Origin: a virus
Taxonomy: Duplodnaviria; Heunggongvirae; Uroviricota; Caudoviricetes
Virus record (IMG/VR): IMGVR_UViG_2740892427_000001
Direction: 5' to 3' (one strand)
DNA length: 64,000 bases
Of this stretch, positions 12,034-53,289 are shown in pieces. Each line of letters starts with the position of its first letter. Position 1 is the stretch's first letter. The position numbers and the translations under genes were made by a program. The notes under the pieces were generated by a model that was not told where the DNA came from, made no database searches, and saw only the letters and a list, made by a program, of their open reading frames with translations.

Positions 12034-12678
12034 TTACTGCTTGTTATAAACAAAACCAATATCTTTCTTGTGAGGCATATCTGCTGCTGAAAAAGCTGCG
12101 ATCTTCGCGAGTCGATCACATATTTCATTTTCACGATGCCCGGCGTGACCTTTAACCCACTTCCAGCGAACATTATGTCGACTTGCGGCCTCATCCAGAC
12201 GTTTCCACAGATCAACATTCTTTACCGGTTTTTTATCAGAAGTCATCCATCCATTACGTTTCCACCATTTCATCCACTGTGTCATGCCGTTTTTCAGATA
12301 CTGGCTATCAGAGTACAAAATAACGTTGCATGGATATTTCAAACGCTCCAGCCCGATAAGTGCGCCCATCATCTCCATGCGGTTATTGGTGGTGCTATGA
12401 AAACCATCTGAGAACTCGCGTTCCTCACCACGATACTGGAGAACGATACCGTAACCGCCCGGGCCACCCGGATTTTTAAGGCAAGAGCCATCACTAAAGA
12501 TTTTCACGGTTTTGAGCTGGGGATTGAACTCTACGACAGGCGTTGTGGGATTGGTGCGGGGAGAATTTTTGTTTTTGGCTTTTTTGCGAGTTTTTGCTTG
12601 CGATCGGGCTGGTGTCTTCGTCGTCATATAAACTCCTGAATCAAGCGCCGCGCCGATTTTTTCCTCGCGCGTGCGCAC
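12034..12678 (-). CDS. rnhA: RNase H (RNase HI family); true start may be internal
   Basis: Core KIFSDGSC...NRMEMMG...[14 protein letters not shown] matches RNase HI; first ~20 codons overlap a GC palindrome and may be 5' UTR. Confidence 0.75.
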
Positions 12679-12699
12679 ACGCGTGCGTGTTAATAATTA

Positions 12700-13200
12700 T
12701 TAAAATAAACAAATTACTTCCCAGAACAGGTTTTTATAAACCTGAACTGAACGAACGAAGTGAGTGAAGTTCACCTCGAACGAAGTGAGAGGTTGTCTTT
12801 TCAGGTAATACTCTCCCAGGGAGGTGAGTATAAAATTCCTCACCAACCTGGTCGTTTCATAACCTGAAAAGCTATGGTCTAAGTCTACTGCCAGCTTAGA
12901 CTTGGGAAGTTATGGATGACAGCACCCCAGAACCGAGATCTTCCCACACTTTATGAAGGGGAGTACTGGATTCAACCTCTCGAAACACCCCAGACTCGAC
13001 AATCATAAAGTGACCCTTGTCTCTGCTCACTTTGGTTCCCCCTTCCCCGACACCTATACGGCACCGGTTCTACGCTGGTAGTGAGCTTTTTTAAACCTGA
13101 CGCCAGTGACGCTTACCCCCACCCATCAGGTCGAGCCTCCAGTCTACGACTGGAAACTATCATATCTTAGCACTTACAATTCACTTTATGAATAGTTTGT
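12700..13200. other. ~500-bp ORF-free island with internal direct repeats and palindromes; candidate structured RNA or replication/packaging site
   Basis: No ORF of 60 aa or more in any frame; GAACGAAGTGAG x2 flanking palindrome GTGAAGTTCAC; several 5- to 7-bp stem pairs. Confidence 0.3.
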
Positions 13201-13209
13201 ACTTATCTA

Positions 13210-13464
13210 TCATTGTGATTGATTATTTTCTCGACCATGTAGTTGAACATTCAAGGCAAACACCTCATTGATCAACTCACCTAAAAGCTGTTCAACAAGT
13301 TCGCGATGCTCTCCAAGATGCAAGCACTTAATTGCCCACTCGTACAAGTTGAAAGCCTGCTCACGATCTTTCATCATTTCACGAGCCTGGGCCAGAAAAT
13401 CGCTCTCTACGAGCGCAACGACATTAGTCGGGTATGACATGTTGGTTTCCTTAAAGTGGTTCAT
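13210..13464 (-). CDS. hypothetical protein
   Basis: 84 aa ORF. Confidence 0.4.
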   Translation of the reverse strand: MNHFKETNMSYPTNVVALVESDFLAQAREMMKDREQAFNLYEWAIKCLHLGEHRELVEQLLGELINEVFALNVQLHGRENNQSQ

Positions 13465-13545
13465 AAAATCGATTTTAAAGCGTCTGGGAAGGGGTTCTAG
13501 TGGATTCTGTAGTGATGTTCAGGTCTGGAGTCTCTGATACAAAAC

Positions 13546-13604
13546 AGCCTGCTTCCGTATATTAATAATTAATATGTAGTTATTTATATATACAGAAGCA
13601 GGCT
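13546..13604. terminator. long hairpin AGCCTGCTTCCGTATAT / ATATACAGAAGCAGGCT with AT-rich loop; one of two copies of this element
   Basis: 17-bp stems with one mismatch; second copy at 61112..61169. Confidence 0.5.
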
Positions 13605-13625
13605 AATTACAGACGCCAGAACAAA

Positions 13626-14219
13626 CTAAGCAGCCTTCTTTGATGGTCTTTTTTTCCTGATCACATTCGCAGGATCATACCCTCCCAGACTTTTCATGAC
13701 GTCCAAAGGGATCTTGCTTATAGAGTGCCCAGCGTCCTGACAGAATCCTCGAAAAACAACGAGCATACTGCCACCGGGGTTGATGTTTACTTCTACCTGA
13801 CCCAAATTGACGTCAGGCTCGACAAACGCTACGCGGCCACCAGACAGAATAATCGTCTCATTCGCATACTCTGTTGCACGCTCATACCACTTTGTATCGA
13901 GGGATTGAGGAATTAGCATCACTGTTGTAACTCCGCGAGCCTGCTCACGTATAGCAGCATCAATCCAGGGGGAGATTTTGGAGTAGGGTGGATTGAGGAA
14001 GGCAATTGTACCTGGCTGTCCCCATTCAGATTTCAAAGCATCACGCTCAATGCCTATGAAATTAGGCAGCTTTGCGTTGTCCTTGTTGCAGGCAACGTCA
14101 ACATCAAATGTCACTCCAAGATAACGTTGAATGGCAGAAAACAGCCAATCAGGTGTTCTCCAGAGGTCACGAAGAGAGTTGTCGCGCTTTCGCTGTTTGA
14201 TTTTTTCGGCTGCAATCAT
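13626..14219 (-). CDS. phage-type DNA N6-adenine methyltransferase
   Basis: 197 aa; NPPY motif (FLNPPYS) and phage Dam-like layout. Confidence 0.65.
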   Translation of the reverse strand: MIAAEKIKQRKRDNSLRDLWRTPDWLFSAIQRYLGVTFDVDVACNKDNAKLPNFIGIERDALKSEWGQPGTIAFLNPPYSKISPWIDAAIREQARGVTTVMLIPQSLDTKWYERATEYANETIILSGGRVAFVEPDVNLGQVEVNINPGGSMLVVFRGFCQDAGHSISKIPLDVMKSLGGYDPANVIRKKRPSKKAA

Positions 14220-41589: not shown

Positions 41590-41918
41590 TGATGCCCGCC
41601 AATTGGCGGGCATCTGTTCTCTGTAAAGGTGTCTGGCATCGTCTGGTTCGTTAACGTTTACTAAACCAATGGTGACAAAAATTAGTTATCTTTGAAAAAT
41701 AAAGGTTGCATGAAAAGAAGGGGTATGCGTTAATAGCATCGTTGGTTTGCAAGACAGACCTTATGTAAGCAGTTTTAGTAAAGCAGTCTCAGTTCAGTGT
41801 TATCTTCTGATTTCCCTTCTTCGTGAGTCTCCTCCTTAAGTGCCTAAGTAAGTCCCAATCTATACAGATCAAATTCTCGCCGCACTATGTGGCTCACAAA
41901 ATTAAGAAGGTAATATCT

Positions 41919-42134
41919 ATGTCTAATAAAATGACTGGTTTAGTAAAATGGTTTAACTCTGATAAAGGCTTTGGCTTTATTTCTCCTGCTGATGGCAGTA
42001 AAGATGTTTTTGTACATTTTTCGGCAATTCAGAGTAATAATTTCCGCACTTTGGAAGAAGGCCAGCAGGTCGAATTCTCTATCGAGAATGGTGCTAAAGG
42101 CCCAGCAGCAGCAAATGTCGTTGCTCTAAGCTGA
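41919..42134 (+). CDS. cold-shock protein (CspA family)
   Basis: [38 protein letters not shown] is near-identical in pattern to E. coli CspA/CspE; long 5' UTR. Confidence 0.85.
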
Positions 42135-42412
42135 TTCAACGCTGATGATCCTCATTTCTACAATAACGAAGACGGTGTAAGCCTGAGTGGATAGATTTGT
42201 AGGATTGTACAAGTTGAATAAATTAGCATGGTAAGGCCATGCTAATTAAATCGACACAACGGCCAGTTTATTCCATAAAAGTGAATTGCCCATTGTGGCG
42301 AAATGCGGGGTTGCCGCATGAATAGTCAAAGGCAGAAGCTAACTGCCGGCATGGCAAAACAAAGTGCGTAAGAGGAGTGACTTCCTCAACAAGCGCCATA
42401 ATTCTTTATAAA

Positions 42413-50126: not shown

Positions 50127-50513
50127 ATGTCTGATAACAAGATTGAATTTATAGAAAGTCGCTACGCTGCTTTTATCGCAGGGTTGATTGAATCCTCACC
50201 TATGAGCCAGGCCCAGATAGCCAAAACAATTGGGTATAAAAACGCCAACAACCTTTCTTTAATTAAAAGCGGCAAAATTCCTTTGCCTATCGATAAGGTT
50301 CGTCCGCTGGCGCTGGCACTGGGTATTGAGCCAAGTCGTCTTATGATGATGGTGCTGGAAGAACGCCAACCCGAACTCGCAGCATTTTTATACAAAGAAG
50401 GCACTGCTCCTCTTAACGAGGACGAAAAACAGGTTCTTGCTGCATATAACGAGCGATTCGGTAAAGAGAAAGGCGCATCACAAAAGGTTGTTGAGGCCAT
50501 AAAGTCTCTATGA
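50127..50513 (+). CDS. HTH (XRE/Cro-C1 type) transcriptional regulator
   Basis: 128 aa; HTH-like MSQAQIAKTIGYKNANNLSLIKSGK. Confidence 0.6.
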   Translation: MSDNKIEFIESRYAAFIAGLIESSPMSQAQIAKTIGYKNANNLSLIKSGKIPLPIDKVRPLALALGIEPSRLMMMVLEERQPELAAFLYKEGTAPLNEDEKQVLAAYNERFGKEKGASQKVVEAIKSL

Positions 50514-52635: not shown

Positions 52636-52722
52636 TGGCGGAGAGTAATGGAATCGAACCATCATCGCTTGCGCAATGGGACGGTTTTCAAGACCGCTTG
52701 AGCACCATGCTCCCTACTCTCC
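52636..52722 (-). tRNA. tRNA-Ser (anticodon TGA), long variable arm
   Basis: Cloverleaf folded by hand: acceptor GGAGAGT/ACTCTCC, anticodon loop CTTGAAA, T-loop GGTTCGATTCC, 87 nt. Confidence 0.7.
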
Positions 52723-52822
52723 AGCTATTGTGATGGTCGGTGCTGAACTCCGACACAGGGTTGTAGCAAGCCCCGCAAAGCGCGCACTACTGTAGTTGCG
52801 GCACATCAGCCTGTGCATTCAT

Positions 52823-52901
52823 CACAACGGTAAGATCACTACCTTTCGACCAGTCATTGTGCACATGAACGACGATTAACCGTAATGATCTTATCGTTGT
52901 G
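52823..52901 (-). repeat. hairpin-bounded module H2 (terminal inverted repeat CACAACGGTAAGATCA)
   Basis: 79 nt, 16-bp stems with one G-U position. Confidence 0.4.
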
Positions 52902-52952
52902 TTGTGAAGCCAGATGCTTATCTTCTGGTTGCTTCAAAGAGCTGCACTTCCT

Positions 52953-53041
52953 CACAACGGTAAGAGCACTGGTCTGACTCTATCGATTTACGGGCTTGTG
53001 GGTCAGTATCGCCGATTCGCCCAATGCTCTTACCTGTTGTG
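52953..53041 (-). repeat. hairpin-bounded module H3 (terminal inverted repeat CACAACGGTAAGAGCA), abuts tRNA-Thr
   Basis: 89 nt, 16-bp stems with one bulge. Confidence 0.4.
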
Positions 53042-53042
53042 T

Positions 53043-53118
53043 TGGTGCCGGTTAACGGGATCGAACCGCTGACATCCTGCTTACAAGGCAGACGCTCTAC
53101 CAACTGAGCTAAACCGGC
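53043..53118 (-). tRNA. tRNA-Thr (anticodon TGT)
   Basis: Acceptor GCCGGTT/AACCGGC, anticodon loop CTTGTAA, T-loop GGTTCGATCC, 76 nt. Confidence 0.8.
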
Positions 53119-53122
53119 AATT

Positions 53123-53209
53123 TGGTGGGGAGTGATGGAGTCGAACCACCCGAGTCGCAATGACAGTAGATTTACAGTCTACCCCGCTGCCCCTACGGAC
53201 TAACTCCCC
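53123..53209 (-). tRNA. tRNA-Tyr (anticodon GTA), long variable arm
   Basis: Acceptor GGGGAGT/ACTCCCC, anticodon loop CTGTAAA, T-loop GGTTCGACTCC, 87 nt. Confidence 0.75.
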
Positions 53210-53214
53210 TAAAT

Positions 53215-53289
53215 TGGCGATGGTGGGTGGATTCGAACCACCGACCAGTTGGTTAACAGCCAACTGCTCTACCGCTGAGCTACACCATC
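53215..53289 (-). tRNA. tRNA-Asn (anticodon GTT)
   Basis: Acceptor GATGGTG/CACCATC, anticodon loop CTGTTAA, T-loop GGTTCGAATCC, 75 nt. Confidence 0.8.

What the first reader, a model, noticed from the sequence alone, without database searches (positions are those of the whole stretch)
12700..13200. 500-bp ORF-free island with internal repeats between operons
No ORF of 60 aa or more exists in any frame, which is unusual in this densely coding element. The region contains GAACGAAGTGAG twice around the palindrome GTGAAGTTCAC, several short stem pairs (for example GCTCACT...AGTGAGC and CCAGT...ACTGG), and a GC palindrome pair (GTGCGCAC, CACGCGTG) at its downstream edge. Candidate functions are a structured regulatory RNA, a lytic origin or a packaging site.
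Basis: seen in the sequence. Interest (0 to 1): 0.45.

Follow-up and report, generated by a model that had tools for sequence, protein, structure and literature searches.

The report
New large structured RNA in phage-plasmids
The "empty" 500 bp is a gene for a roughly 445-nucleotide, intricately folded non-coding RNA that matches no described RNA family, is better conserved than the protein genes beside it, and is carried by hundreds of SSU5/pHCM2-type phage-plasmids of E. coli, Salmonella and Klebsiella.

Summary
The window is an SSU5/pHCM2-like phage-plasmid, and the true gap is 12628-13209.

- **Conservation:** the core, about 12714-13158, is 90-100% identical between genera. The flanking genes are only 65-80% identical.
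- **Structure:** sequences down to about 58% identity keep a 15-helix fold. 97% of cells are paired. 40 of 108 pairs changed on both sides, against 13 in shuffles (0/500).
- **Strand:** G-U pairs place the RNA on the minus strand.
- **Own promoter:** an extended -10 promoter sits just upstream in every clade. In most clades it abuts a palindrome that recurs 13 times in the window and looks like a repressor operator.
- **Not something else:** no ORF is conserved, and nothing in Rfam 15 matches.
the "stem pairs" are helices P1 and P3. The first repeat copy is one strand of a probable pseudoknot.

The function is not established. My leading guess, at about 0.3, is an RNA II-like pre-primer or activator of the lytic replication origin. 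A trans-acting "ornate" RNA (about 0.3) and an antitermination leader (about 0.15) remain open. DNA-only readings such as iterons or a packaging site are poorly supported.

The parts
13187..13192 (-). -35 hexamer (TTCATA here; TTTAAA, TTTACG or TTTACC in other clades)
   Evidence: Read from the sequence. The same position and spacing is seen in all clades. The simple scan does not call it because it matches 8 of 12.
13164..13172 (-). Extended -10 (TGcTAAGAT). TAAnAT or TAGAAT is present in every clade, preceded by TGn in all but pJN2
   Evidence: Upstream alignment of ten homologues. Inferred promoter, with the transcription start predicted near 13157-13158.
13193..13212 (.). Degenerate copy of a roughly 20-bp palindrome (consensus ATAGGTAAGTACTTACCTAT) abutting the -35. 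It is perfect in SSU5 and Buttiauxella; no clear copy was seen upstream in L080, L088 or L089
   Evidence: The 14-mer core occurs 13 times in the window against 1.3 expected. The best copy is 32 nt upstream of the HTH repressor gene (50082). Putative operator (inference).
12714..13158 (-). The structured RNA, about 445 nt: 15 helices including two pseudoknot helices
   Evidence: Conservation profile, alignments A3 and A4, RNAalifold, pair counts with controls and strand test.
13139..13153 (-). The sequence differs in every clade but the stem is always kept
   Evidence: CCAGUC/GACUGG, CCGGA/UCCGG, UCGA/UCGA, GGCAGAU/AUCUGCC, UCCGGAC/GUCCGGA, CUUCCAGC/GCUGGAAG.
13095..13131 (-). P2 hairpin (ACCUGAUG/CGUCAGGU). 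It encloses the G-rich strand GGGUGGGG (13116-13123)
   Evidence: helix 2: 6 of 8 pairs changed on both sides.
13025..13086 (-).
   Evidence: helices 4 and 5: 3 + 3 pairs with double changes. The GUGAG strand can alternatively pair with 12824-12828.
12947..13012 (-). P4 (CACUUUAUG/CAUAAAGUG) enclosing P5 (12961-12997)
   Evidence: helices 6 and 7: 7 of 9 and 6 of 9 pairs with double changes.
12903..12946 (-). P6/P6a hairpin. Its internal loop GAUCU(C/U)G(G/A)UUCUGGGGU varies at only two positions across clades and holds the palindrome AGAUCU
   Evidence: helices 8 and 9: 100% paired. Invariance.
12877..12901 (-). P7 hairpin with the invariant loop GCUGGCAGUAG
   Evidence: helix 10: 100% paired, 5 double changes.
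12797..12876 (-). P8 hairpin whose loop pairs with 12797-12805 (P9, pseudoknot). P10 and P11 lie in between
   Evidence: helices 11-13. The P9 compensation (CAGG/CCUG to CUGG/CCAG in the L080 clade) was seen by hand after moving the alignment gap (alignment).
12783..12792 (-). It is the 3' strand of a long-range pseudoknot helix with the G-rich strand 13116-13123
   Evidence: helix 3: 98.6% paired, with only one-sided compatible changes (G-U to A-U, G-U to G-C) and no double change.
12766..12777 (-). The loop is GAAA in the L080 clade
   Evidence: helix 14.
12753..12764 (-). Second copy of the repeat. It is partly deleted in the L080 and L088 clades, so probably dispensable
12714..12749 (-). 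P13, the 3' hairpin, plus the conserved tail UUCUGGGAAGUAA. This is a second UUCUGGG, also seen in the P6 loop
   Evidence: (helix 15).
12690..12713 (-). A+U-rich spacer. Its length (25-45 nt) and sequence vary between clades. There is no intrinsic terminator
12645..12689 (-). The GCGCGAG core is kept, with small variation (GCGTGAG, GCACGCGAG), in the clades examined whatever gene follows
   Evidence: Whether it belongs to the RNA element is not settled.
13210..13440 (-). Upstream small gene (76 aa, phrog_5343, acidic three-helix protein). It accompanies the RNA in every locus that carries the RNA
12034..12627 (-). Downstream RNase HI gene with a basic N-terminal extension. It is the usual but not obligatory neighbour
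   Evidence: It is replaced by betT (L008), by Gabija-like genes (L090) or by an unknown 200-aa gene (L080).

Best explanation
Shown (about 0.95): the interval is a gene for a roughly 445-nt non-coding RNA read from the minus strand, about 13158 down to 12714. The RNA folds into at least 15 helices, including pseudoknots. The fold is held by compensatory changes, and many unpaired bases are invariant between genera.

Inferred from sequence: the RNA has its own sigma-70 promoter with an extended -10. In most clades the -35 abuts a palindrome that looks like the operator of the element's HTH repressor. The RNA would then be switched on with the early DNA-metabolism genes.

No terminator follows. 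What follows is an A+U-rich spacer and then a conserved GCGCGAG + A-rich motif.

Mechanism I commit to (inferred, about 0.3): the RNA acts in cis as a ColE1 RNA II-like pre-primer or activator of the phage-type (lytic) replication origin.
1. Derepressed transcription makes the folded RNA.
2. Its 3' extension stays hybridised to the template at the A+T-rich/G+C-rich junction.
3. RNase HI, phage-encoded or host, trims it to a 3'-OH.
4. Synthesis starts in the same direction as nearly all genes, using the element's own helicase, primase and Pol III alpha.
For: RNA nature:
- Core 90-100% identical between genera, against 65-80% for the neighbouring genes.
- 97.3% of cells paired. 40 of 108 pairs changed on both sides, against 13.0 +/- 2.8 in shuffles and 6-12 in slid controls, 0/500. 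RNAalifold found 30 of 96 compensatory pairs.
- G-U pairs favour the minus strand, for example P7 1.00 against 0.81 and P3a 0.94 against 0.70.
- No ORF is shared by all clades. No Rfam match.
- The promoter is conserved in all clades. The operator-like palindrome is enriched 13 against 1.3.

Origin idea:
- The RNA lies inside a co-directional replication and nucleotide-metabolism module holding helicase, primase, ligase, Pol III alpha, epsilon exonuclease, RNR, ThyX, Dam and RNase HI.
- RNase HI is the usual next gene. It also follows the non-homologous structured gap in L084.
- No terminator. The A+T-rich spacer is conserved in composition only, and is followed by a GCGCGAG + A-run.
- Precedent: 400-500-bp RNA-expressing regions are required for extrachromosomal prophage maintenance in mycobacteriophages (PMC7157519). 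ColE1 RNA II is from my own knowledge.
Against: - An R-loop primer always matches its own template. It therefore does not explain why so many unpaired bases are invariant, or why several pseudoknots are kept. These features fit a trans-acting RNA particle better.
- rnhA is dispensable for keeping the RNA (L008, L090 and the L080 clade).
- A U-rich RNA:DNA hybrid right after the fold would be weak.
- No GC-skew change at the site.
- No antisense RNA I-like promoter inside the 5' region.
- The element already has a RepA replicon about 17 kb away.
- There is no transcript, end-mapping or replication data of any kind.
Confidence: 0.3

Rival explanations
1. A stand-alone, trans-acting 'ornate' RNA. 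It would be transcribed early, cut free in the A+U-rich spacer (RNase E-type site) and protected by its terminal hairpins P1 and P13. It would then act as a compact RNA-only or RNA-protein particle that binds a conserved host or phage partner. It might self-associate through palindromic loops such as AGAUCU.
For: - Many invariant unpaired bases and at least two pseudoknots.
- Further candidate long-range pairings CUCGAC/GUCGAG and GGGGA/UCCCC, both with covariation.
- Terminal hairpins. A hypervariable but always paired P1.
- The RNA is kept at 87-95% identity where the downstream gene is replaced, or is convergent.
- Precedent: GOLLD, ROOL and OLE are large phage- or bacteria-borne RNAs that form homo-oligomers (PMC12286853, listed).
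Against: - No partner is identified.
- The co-occurring 76-aa protein is acidic, has no informative fold match, and is an unlikely RNA binder.
- No terminator or mapped 3' end.
- Nothing tested shows that the RNA accumulates.
Confidence: 0.3
2. A cis-acting leader that modifies the transcribing RNA polymerase (processive antitermination, like put, EAR or ConAn2), or otherwise controls or stabilises the downstream transcript. It could use the alternative pairings of the GUGAG/CUCAC strands as a switch.
For: - Promoter directly upstream and no terminator after the RNA.
- Several terminator-like hairpins in the co-directional genes downstream.
- One strand (13026-13030) can pair with either of two partners in all clades.
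- ConAn is a protein gene followed by a 260-600-bp RNA region with an essential G+C-rich tract, and it acts in cis (PMC8191782).
Against: - The gene array is divided into many short units, each with its own operator-bearing promoter region. Long-range antitermination therefore seems less needed.
- In L090 the next genes are convergent.
- Known RNA antiterminators are smaller (put, EAR) or poorly conserved in sequence (ConAn2), unlike this one.
Confidence: 0.15
3. A DNA-level site: an iteron-type origin, a packaging (pac) site or a protein-binding array. On this reading the repeats and palindromes would be the functional parts.
For: - Two 12-nt direct repeats, unique in the window, flank a palindrome.
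- A+T-rich and G+C-rich tracts lie at one edge.
Against: - Compensatory changes with G-U intermediates on one strand are not explained by duplex DNA recognition.
- Only two repeat copies exist, and the second is partly deleted in the L080 and L088 clades.
- No GC-skew change.
- The terminase genes are at the other end of the Cyrano genome.
Confidence: 0.04
4. One or more small proteins below the 60-aa cut-off are encoded here and account for the conservation. An example is the 44-aa ORF annotated as CYRAN_81 in phage Cyrano.
For: - Cyrano annotates a 44-aa ORF.
- A 20-aa GTG-started frame (VGRSRFWG...) is open in most clades.
Against: - No ORF of 25 aa or more keeps its frame and position in all clades. 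The 44-aa ORF is absent in five of the seven representative sequences checked.
- The changes that do occur are paired across helices.
- RefSeq annotation of the plasmid records examined places no gene here.
Confidence: 0.03

Closest known systems
ColE1/pMB1 RNA II replication pre-primer (own knowledge; cited as background in PMC7157519)
   Same: A roughly 500-nt untranslated, folded transcript from its own promoter, with no terminator. It has a G-rich 5' part, an RNase H connection, and runs in the direction replication would take.
   Different: No sequence or covariance-model similarity. No antisense RNA I partner was found. It has far more pseudoknots and invariant loops. It sits in a 100-kb phage-plasmid that also has RepA. 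R-loop formation is untested.
RNA-based prophage replication regions of cluster A mycobacteriophages (Alma, LadyBird; PMC7157519)
   Same: A 400-500-bp region inside an extrachromosomal prophage that expresses a non-coding RNA. In those phages it is required for stable prophage maintenance.
   Different: Those phages lack repA, and the region lies next to parABS. The host phylum is different. No homology was tested or expected.
Large 'ornate' bacterial and phage RNAs: GOLLD, ROOL, OLE, raiA (Rfam; PMC12286853)
   Same: More than 400 nt, many helices and pseudoknots, strong covariation, carried by a phage element that also has tRNA genes, and function unknown.
   Different: No Rfam model matches even at E = 10. 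The hosts are enterobacteria rather than Firmicutes or environmental lineages. Oligomerisation is untested.
RNA processive antiterminators: HK022 put, EAR, ConAn2 (PMC8191782)
   Same: An RNA element just after a promoter, in front of co-directional genes of a mobile element. It is preceded by a protein gene and contains a G+C-rich tract, as ConAn does.
   Different: Much larger than put and EAR. Far better conserved than ConAn2, which shows 30-40% identity. The partner protein is 76 aa and unrelated. Antitermination is untested.
P1 lytic replicon (C1-controlled promoter P53 reading through repL/oriL; own knowledge)
   Same: A repressor-operator-controlled promoter whose transcription would activate a lytic origin in a phage-plasmid. 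Operators are scattered over the genome.
   Different: P1 oriL lies inside a protein gene (repL). Here there is no ORF, and the transcript itself is structured.

Membership tests
Any Rfam 15 family | Covariance-model score at or above the family's gathering threshold | tested here: not met
   four hits in the window, none here. at E <= 10 give only microRNA-type noise of about 26 bits or less. One search found nothing in the divergent homologues.
ColE1-type RNA II origin | Promoter followed by a roughly 500-nt untranslated structured transcript without a terminator | tested here: met
ColE1-type RNA II origin | Antisense RNA I gene or promoter overlapping the 5' end of the primer RNA | tested here: not met
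   The consensus scan finds no plus-strand promoter inside 12714-13158. The only nearby one (13151-13180) points away from the RNA. This is a weak test. Rfam RNAI gave no hit.
ColE1-type RNA II origin | Persistent RNA-DNA hybrid cut by RNase H, with DNA synthesis starting at the cut | not testable with these tools
   Needs DRIP, in-vitro priming or 5'-end mapping of nascent DNA.
Ornate large RNAs (GOLLD/ROOL/OLE class) | More than 400 nt, many covarying helices, pseudoknots and invariant loops | tested here: met
   15 helices, 40 double-change pairs. Searches give extra long-range candidates.
Ornate large RNAs (GOLLD/ROOL/OLE class) | Homology to one of the named families | tested here: not met
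Ornate large RNAs (GOLLD/ROOL/OLE class) | Homo-oligomeric RNA-only assembly | not testable with these tools
   Needs native gels, SEC-MALS or cryo-EM.
RNA processive antiterminators (put / EAR / ConAn2) | Lies between a promoter and co-directional genes that contain terminators | tested here: inconclusive
   True in most loci. However, the downstream genes are convergent in L090, and the array has many internal promoter-operator regions.
RNA processive antiterminators (put / EAR / ConAn2) | Terminator read-through depends on the RNA in cis | not testable with these tools
   Needs reporter assays.
Iteron-type replication origin | Array of at least 3 direct repeats for an initiator, plus an A+T-rich unwinding element | tested here: not met
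   Only two copies exist. The second is partly deleted in two clades. An A+T-rich tract is present. There is no GC-skew change.
Protein-coding small gene | ORF kept in frame and position across homologues | tested here: not met
tRNA / tmRNA | Detected by ARAGORN | tested here: not met
   the only genes found are at 52.6-53.3 kb.

The most novel reading that the evidence does not exclude
This is a previously undescribed class of large, pseudoknotted RNA specific to SSU5/pHCM2-type phage-plasmids. It would be switched on by prophage derepression and work as an RNA machine. It could prime or license phage-type DNA replication, or act as an RNA-only or RNA-protein particle on a conserved host target. 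A non-homologous structured RNA may fill the same slot in a sister lineage (L084).
Probability: 0.55. Interest if true: 0.8.

Novelty: new variant of a known kind. Interest (0 to 1): 0.66.

Why it matters
These phage-plasmids are common in clinical E. coli, Klebsiella, Enterobacter and Salmonella. 687 PLSDB plasmids carry the RNA, including pHCM2 of S. Typhi CT18, and the group is reported to carry resistance genes.

Their best conserved segment at this locus is an RNA annotated in none of the records I examined and absent from Rfam. Most large structured RNAs of unknown function sit in organisms that are hard to manipulate. This one sits in E. coli K-12-compatible elements (PhiR41_1, Cyrano, SSU5), so genetics, structure probing and cryo-EM are immediately possible.

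If it is the lytic origin primer, it would be an RNA-primed origin in an enterobacterial phage-plasmid that brings its own Pol III-type replisome. I know of no described example of that.

Tried and rejected
- **Rfam:** searched at gathering and at permissive thresholds on the window and on divergent homologues. Nothing found.
- **tRNA/tmRNA:** none here.
- **Small-ORF explanation:** rejected.
- **GC skew as an origin test:** no signal.
- **Small upstream protein:** Pfam and PHROGs are uninformative, and a Foldseek search of the AlphaFold model against the PDB has no hit below E = 8. The Rop-like idea was dropped.
- **Literature:** searches on SSU5, pHCM2, sRNA, phage-plasmid ncRNA and large phage RNA screens found no description of this RNA. 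The supplement of the 10,006-candidate phage screen is not held, so I cannot exclude an unnamed listing there.
- **Search for distant relatives:**
  - A GTDB species-representative scan gave 3 hits.
  - Viral and metagenome scans designed to skip the main clade gave 7 true hits, all in the L080 clade, and 15 chance matches.
  - nhmmer found no second copy in the window and none in L084.
- **Artefact:** L087 looked like an 80% homologue but is a bisulfite-converted (C to T) library and was discarded.
- **Fold choice:** RNAalifold on 25 mostly similar sequences gave an energy-driven fold that disagreed with covariation. I therefore built the model helix by helix.
- **My own errors:** my first helix table had column errors for P10-P12 and the pseudoknot and was redone. 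My recollection of ColE1 placing RNase H cleavage at CAGAAAAAAAGG was wrong, and I do not use it.
- **Confounded query:** the dnaE-region plasmid count overlapped a cspG homologue because my coordinate mapping was off by about 1 kb. I use it only loosely.

Full report
**What the window is.** The DNA around the finding is 98% identical to Escherichia phages CMS-2020a, Cyrano and PhiR41_1. It is 77-80% identical to Salmonella phage SSU5 and several Klebsiella phage-plasmids. It is therefore an SSU5/pHCM2-type phage-plasmid.

All annotated genes nearby are on the minus strand. In order of transcription they are:
- a Dam methylase (13626-14219)
- a 76-aa gene (13210-13440)
- the gap
- RNase HI (12034-12627)

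In Cyrano this stretch lies inside a long co-directional block of replication and nucleotide-metabolism genes. The block holds helicase, primase, ligase, Pol III alpha, RNR, ThyX, Pnkp, DHFR, epsilon exonuclease, Dam and RNase HI. The plasmid-type RepA is about 17 kb away.

**Checking the observation.**
- The gap is 582 nt (12628-13209).
- No ORF longer than 48 aa lies inside 12700-13200. A spurious 74-aa plus-strand ORF intrudes by 68 nt.
The 12-mer repeat occurs only at these two places in 64 kb.
- The two G+C palindromes lie at 12671-12685, just outside the stated interval.
- Both strands fold about 4 sd better than dinucleotide shuffles.

**The interval is the best conserved part of the locus.** In an alignment of E. 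coli, Salmonella, Klebsiella, Enterobacter and Citrobacter elements, 50-nt windows between about 12707 and 13104 are 89-100% identical to the query. The RNase HI, small-gene and Dam windows are 51-84%.

blastn finds the interval in 687 PLSDB plasmids and in all 12 related phage records. The plasmids comprise Klebsiella 310, Escherichia 195, Enterobacter 88, Salmonella 49, Citrobacter 24, Cronobacter 10 and a few others. pHCM2 of S. Typhi CT18 is among them. RefSeq places no gene there in the plasmid records examined.

**It is a structured RNA.** More divergent copies were needed, so I followed homologues of the small upstream protein. That family has only 29 clusters, the most distant at 61% identity. 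Their contigs gave copies at 82% (L089) and 68-70% blastn identity (L080, L082, L088). These figures are 54-60% over the whole element.

- On a 12-sequence alignment, RNAalifold predicts 96 pairs, 30 of them with compensatory double changes.
- I then built a model helix by helix and counted it on a 26-sequence alignment.
- Of 108 pairs in 15 helices, 97.3% of cells are standard pairs. The figure is 92.7% in shuffles and 36-53% when partners are slid by 1-3 columns.
- 40 pairs changed on both sides. That compares with 13.0 +/- 2.8 in shuffles and 6-12 in slid controls. No shuffle out of 500 reaches any observed measure.

The changes come from only four clades, so the number of independent events is much smaller than the number of cells. 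Even so, whole helices are rewritten:
- GUCUAAG/CUUAGAC becomes ACCGGGA/UCUCGGU.
- UCUGG/CCAGA becomes CCAGA/UCUGG.

**Strand.** Many pairs are G-U, or move between G-U, A-U and G-C. Read on the plus strand, the same helices lose pairing:

| Helix | Minus strand | Plus strand |
|---|---|---|
| P7 | 1.00 | 0.81 |
| P6a | 1.00 | 0.82 |
| P3a | 0.94 | 0.70 |
| P2 | 0.96 | 0.85 |

The minus strand also folds 27 kcal/mol better. The functional strand is therefore the minus-strand transcript, co-directional with the genes.

**Anatomy, 5' to 3' on the minus strand.**
- **P1** (13153-13139) is a terminal hairpin. Its sequence differs in every clade, but it always pairs.
- **P2** (13131-13095) encloses a G-rich strand, GGGUGGGG.
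This long-range helix is 98.6% paired and shows only one-sided compatible changes. It is plausible but not proven by covariation.
- **P4-P5, P6-P6a and P7** follow.
- **P8**: its loop pairs with 12797-12805 (P9). P10 and P11 lie between them.
- **P13** is the 3' hairpin, followed by the conserved tail UUCUGGGAAGUAA, ending at 12714.
- The second repeat copy is partly deleted in the L080 and L088 clades.
- Additional long-range candidates also covary. They are CUCGAC/GUCGAG, GGGGA/UCCCC, and an alternative partner for the GUGAG strand. They overlap other helices, so the RNA may have triples or alternative conformers.
- Several loops and junctions are invariant or vary at only one or two positions across all clades. 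Examples are GAUCU(C/U)G(G/A)UUCUGGGGU, CUGGCA, ACCAGCG and AACCUCUCACU(U/C)CGUUCGAGG.

**Other identities excluded.**
- No ORF of 25 aa or more keeps frame and position in all clades. The 44-aa ORF annotated in Cyrano is open in only two of the seven representative sequences checked.
- No Rfam 15 family matches at gathering score or at E <= 10, nor in the divergent homologues.
- ARAGORN finds nothing here.
- I found no paper describing the RNA. An unnamed entry in a large phage RNA screen cannot be excluded.

**Expression signals (inferred).** In every clade a -35-like hexamer (TTTAnn, or TTCATA in this window) sits about 17 nt upstream of a -10. The -10 is TAAnAT or TAGAAT, preceded by TGn in all clades but pJN2. 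It ends 10-15 nt before P1. In this window the -35 is 13192-13187, the extended -10 is 13172-13164, and the start is predicted near 13157.

Abutting the -35 in most clades is a palindrome that is perfect in SSU5 and Buttiauxella (GGTAAGTACTTACC). I did not find a clear copy upstream in L080, L088 or L089.
- Allowing up to 3 mismatches, the window holds 13 copies against 1.3 expected (0 of 100 shuffles).
- The extended consensus is ATAGGTAAGTACTTACCTAT.
- Most copies lie 15-90 nt upstream of minus-strand gene starts, including Dam and RNR.
- The best copy is 32 nt upstream of the HTH repressor gene.

I read the palindrome as the repressor's operator. On that reading the RNA is an early, derepression-induced gene. 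The copy in this window is degenerate in one half-site.

No intrinsic terminator follows the RNA. Instead there is an A+U-rich spacer of 25-45 nt that varies in sequence. After it comes a G+C-rich tract whose core GCGCGAG plus an A-rich run is kept, with small variation, whatever gene comes next.

**Neighbours.** The small gene always precedes the RNA. RNase HI usually follows, but it is replaced in three settings:
- by betT in pEH4236
- by a convergent Gabija-like pair in a Buttiauxella plasmid, leaving a stub of rnhA
- by an unknown 200-aa gene in the L080 clade

The RNA is therefore not a dedicated rnhA leader.

**Distribution.**
- A motif scan of one genome per GTDB species found it only in Buttiauxella gaviniae and two Kluyvera genomes. 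The B. gaviniae copy has its 5' 170 nt replaced.
- Scans built to skip the main clade found only more L080-type copies.
- No Yersinia plasmid matched the RNA, although Yersinia plasmids match other parts of the element.
- The family is confined to this phage-plasmid group.

**A sister lineage.** In L084-L086 the small protein is 70% identical. The same slot holds an unrelated 715-nt gap that also folds unusually well (z = -5.25), and two RNase H genes follow it.

**Mechanism.** What is shown is an RNA-level, strand-specific, structure-dependent element with its own promoter. Everything beyond that is inference.

*RNA II-like pre-primer or origin activator (about 0.3).* This is the hypothesis with the most specific support:
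- It sits in the replication module.
- It has the usual RNase HI neighbour, as does the non-homologous L084 variant.
- It has an operator-controlled promoter, as in the λ and P1 lytic origins.
- It lacks a terminator.
- An A+T-rich tract is followed by a conserved G+C-rich and A-run motif.
- The element has a replisome but no recognised lytic initiator.
- There are precedents in ColE1 and in mycobacteriophage prophage origins.

The main weakness is that a primer RNA always matches its template. That does not explain the invariant loops and the pseudoknots.

*Trans-acting ornate RNA particle (about 0.3).* The invariant loops and pseudoknots fit this reading better, but it has no identified partner.

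*Antitermination or leader role (about 0.15).* This fits the promoter and missing-terminator layout and the ConAn precedent. It is weakened by the many internal operator-bearing promoter regions, and by the convergent neighbours in one plasmid.

*DNA-only and small-ORF readings.* Unlikely, at 0.04 and 0.03.

**Verdict.** It is a new, large, highly conserved structured RNA in a clinically widespread and genetically tractable family of phage-plasmids. Its function is unknown, and the competing mechanisms can be separated by the experiments listed under next steps.

Noticed in passing
window 7052, 12021, 14234, 19066, 23782, 28466, 35239, 39786, 40025, 50082, 54059, 61007 and 61011 (14-mers): A palindrome of about 20 bp (consensus ATAGGTAAGTACTTACCTAT) recurs 13 times against 1.3 expected. 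Most copies lie just upstream of minus-strand gene starts, and the best copy is next to the HTH repressor gene (50127-50513). It is probably the repressor's operator set, scattered as in phage P1.
   Followed up: partly
window 13541-13609: A long A+T-rich, near-perfect hairpin (AGCCTGCTTC...GAAGCAGGCT) lies right after the Dam stop codon. On the minus strand it is followed by GUUUUGU. It is likely the terminator that separates the Dam unit from the small-gene/RNA unit.
   Followed up: no
window 12665-12689: A 25-nt perfectly alternating purine-pyrimidine tract with Z-DNA or cruciform potential holds GTGCGCAC and CACGCGTG. Its core GCGCGAG plus an A-run is conserved in the clades examined, upstream of whatever gene follows the RNA.
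   Followed up: partly
L084:3226-3938 (also L085, L086): A sister phage-plasmid lineage has an unrelated 715-nt ORF-poor gap in the same slot. It folds very well (z = -5.25), has no Rfam or PLSDB match, and is followed by two RNase H genes. It may be a second, non-homologous RNA with the same role.
   Followed up: partly
L090:3780-6231; L008:1-1500: The site just downstream of the RNA is a swap point. rnhA is replaced by a convergent Gabija-like OLD/UvrD pair in a Buttiauxella plasmid, leaving an ATGACTACCATGGCATAA stub. It is replaced by betT in Enterobacter pEH4236. The L080 clade carries a Tad2-like gene nearby.
   Followed up: partly
L096:4805-5164: In the Buttiauxella gaviniae genome the RNA lacks its first roughly 170 nt and its promoter, which are replaced by unrelated DNA. 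It looks like a decaying or recombined copy.
   Followed up: no
L087 (SRR8137545): This 'homologue' has nearly every C read as T. It comes from a bisulfite-converted library assembled as if it were normal DNA. Such contigs can pose as divergent relatives.
   Followed up: yes
window 41741-42159 (+) and 52636-53289 (-): A full-length cspA thermoregulator leader is present (Rfam, 187 bits). There is also a cluster of four tRNA genes (Ser, Thr, Tyr, Asn). The element further encodes MetRS and a T4 Pnkp-like kinase-phosphatase, by homology to the Cyrano annotation.
   Followed up: no
window 12926-12932 and 12720-12726 (minus strand): The heptamer UUCUGGG occurs twice in the RNA, once in the conserved P6 internal loop and once in the 3' tail, and is conserved at both places. 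Its DNA complement CCCAGAA occurs only 4 times in the 64 kb.
   Followed up: no
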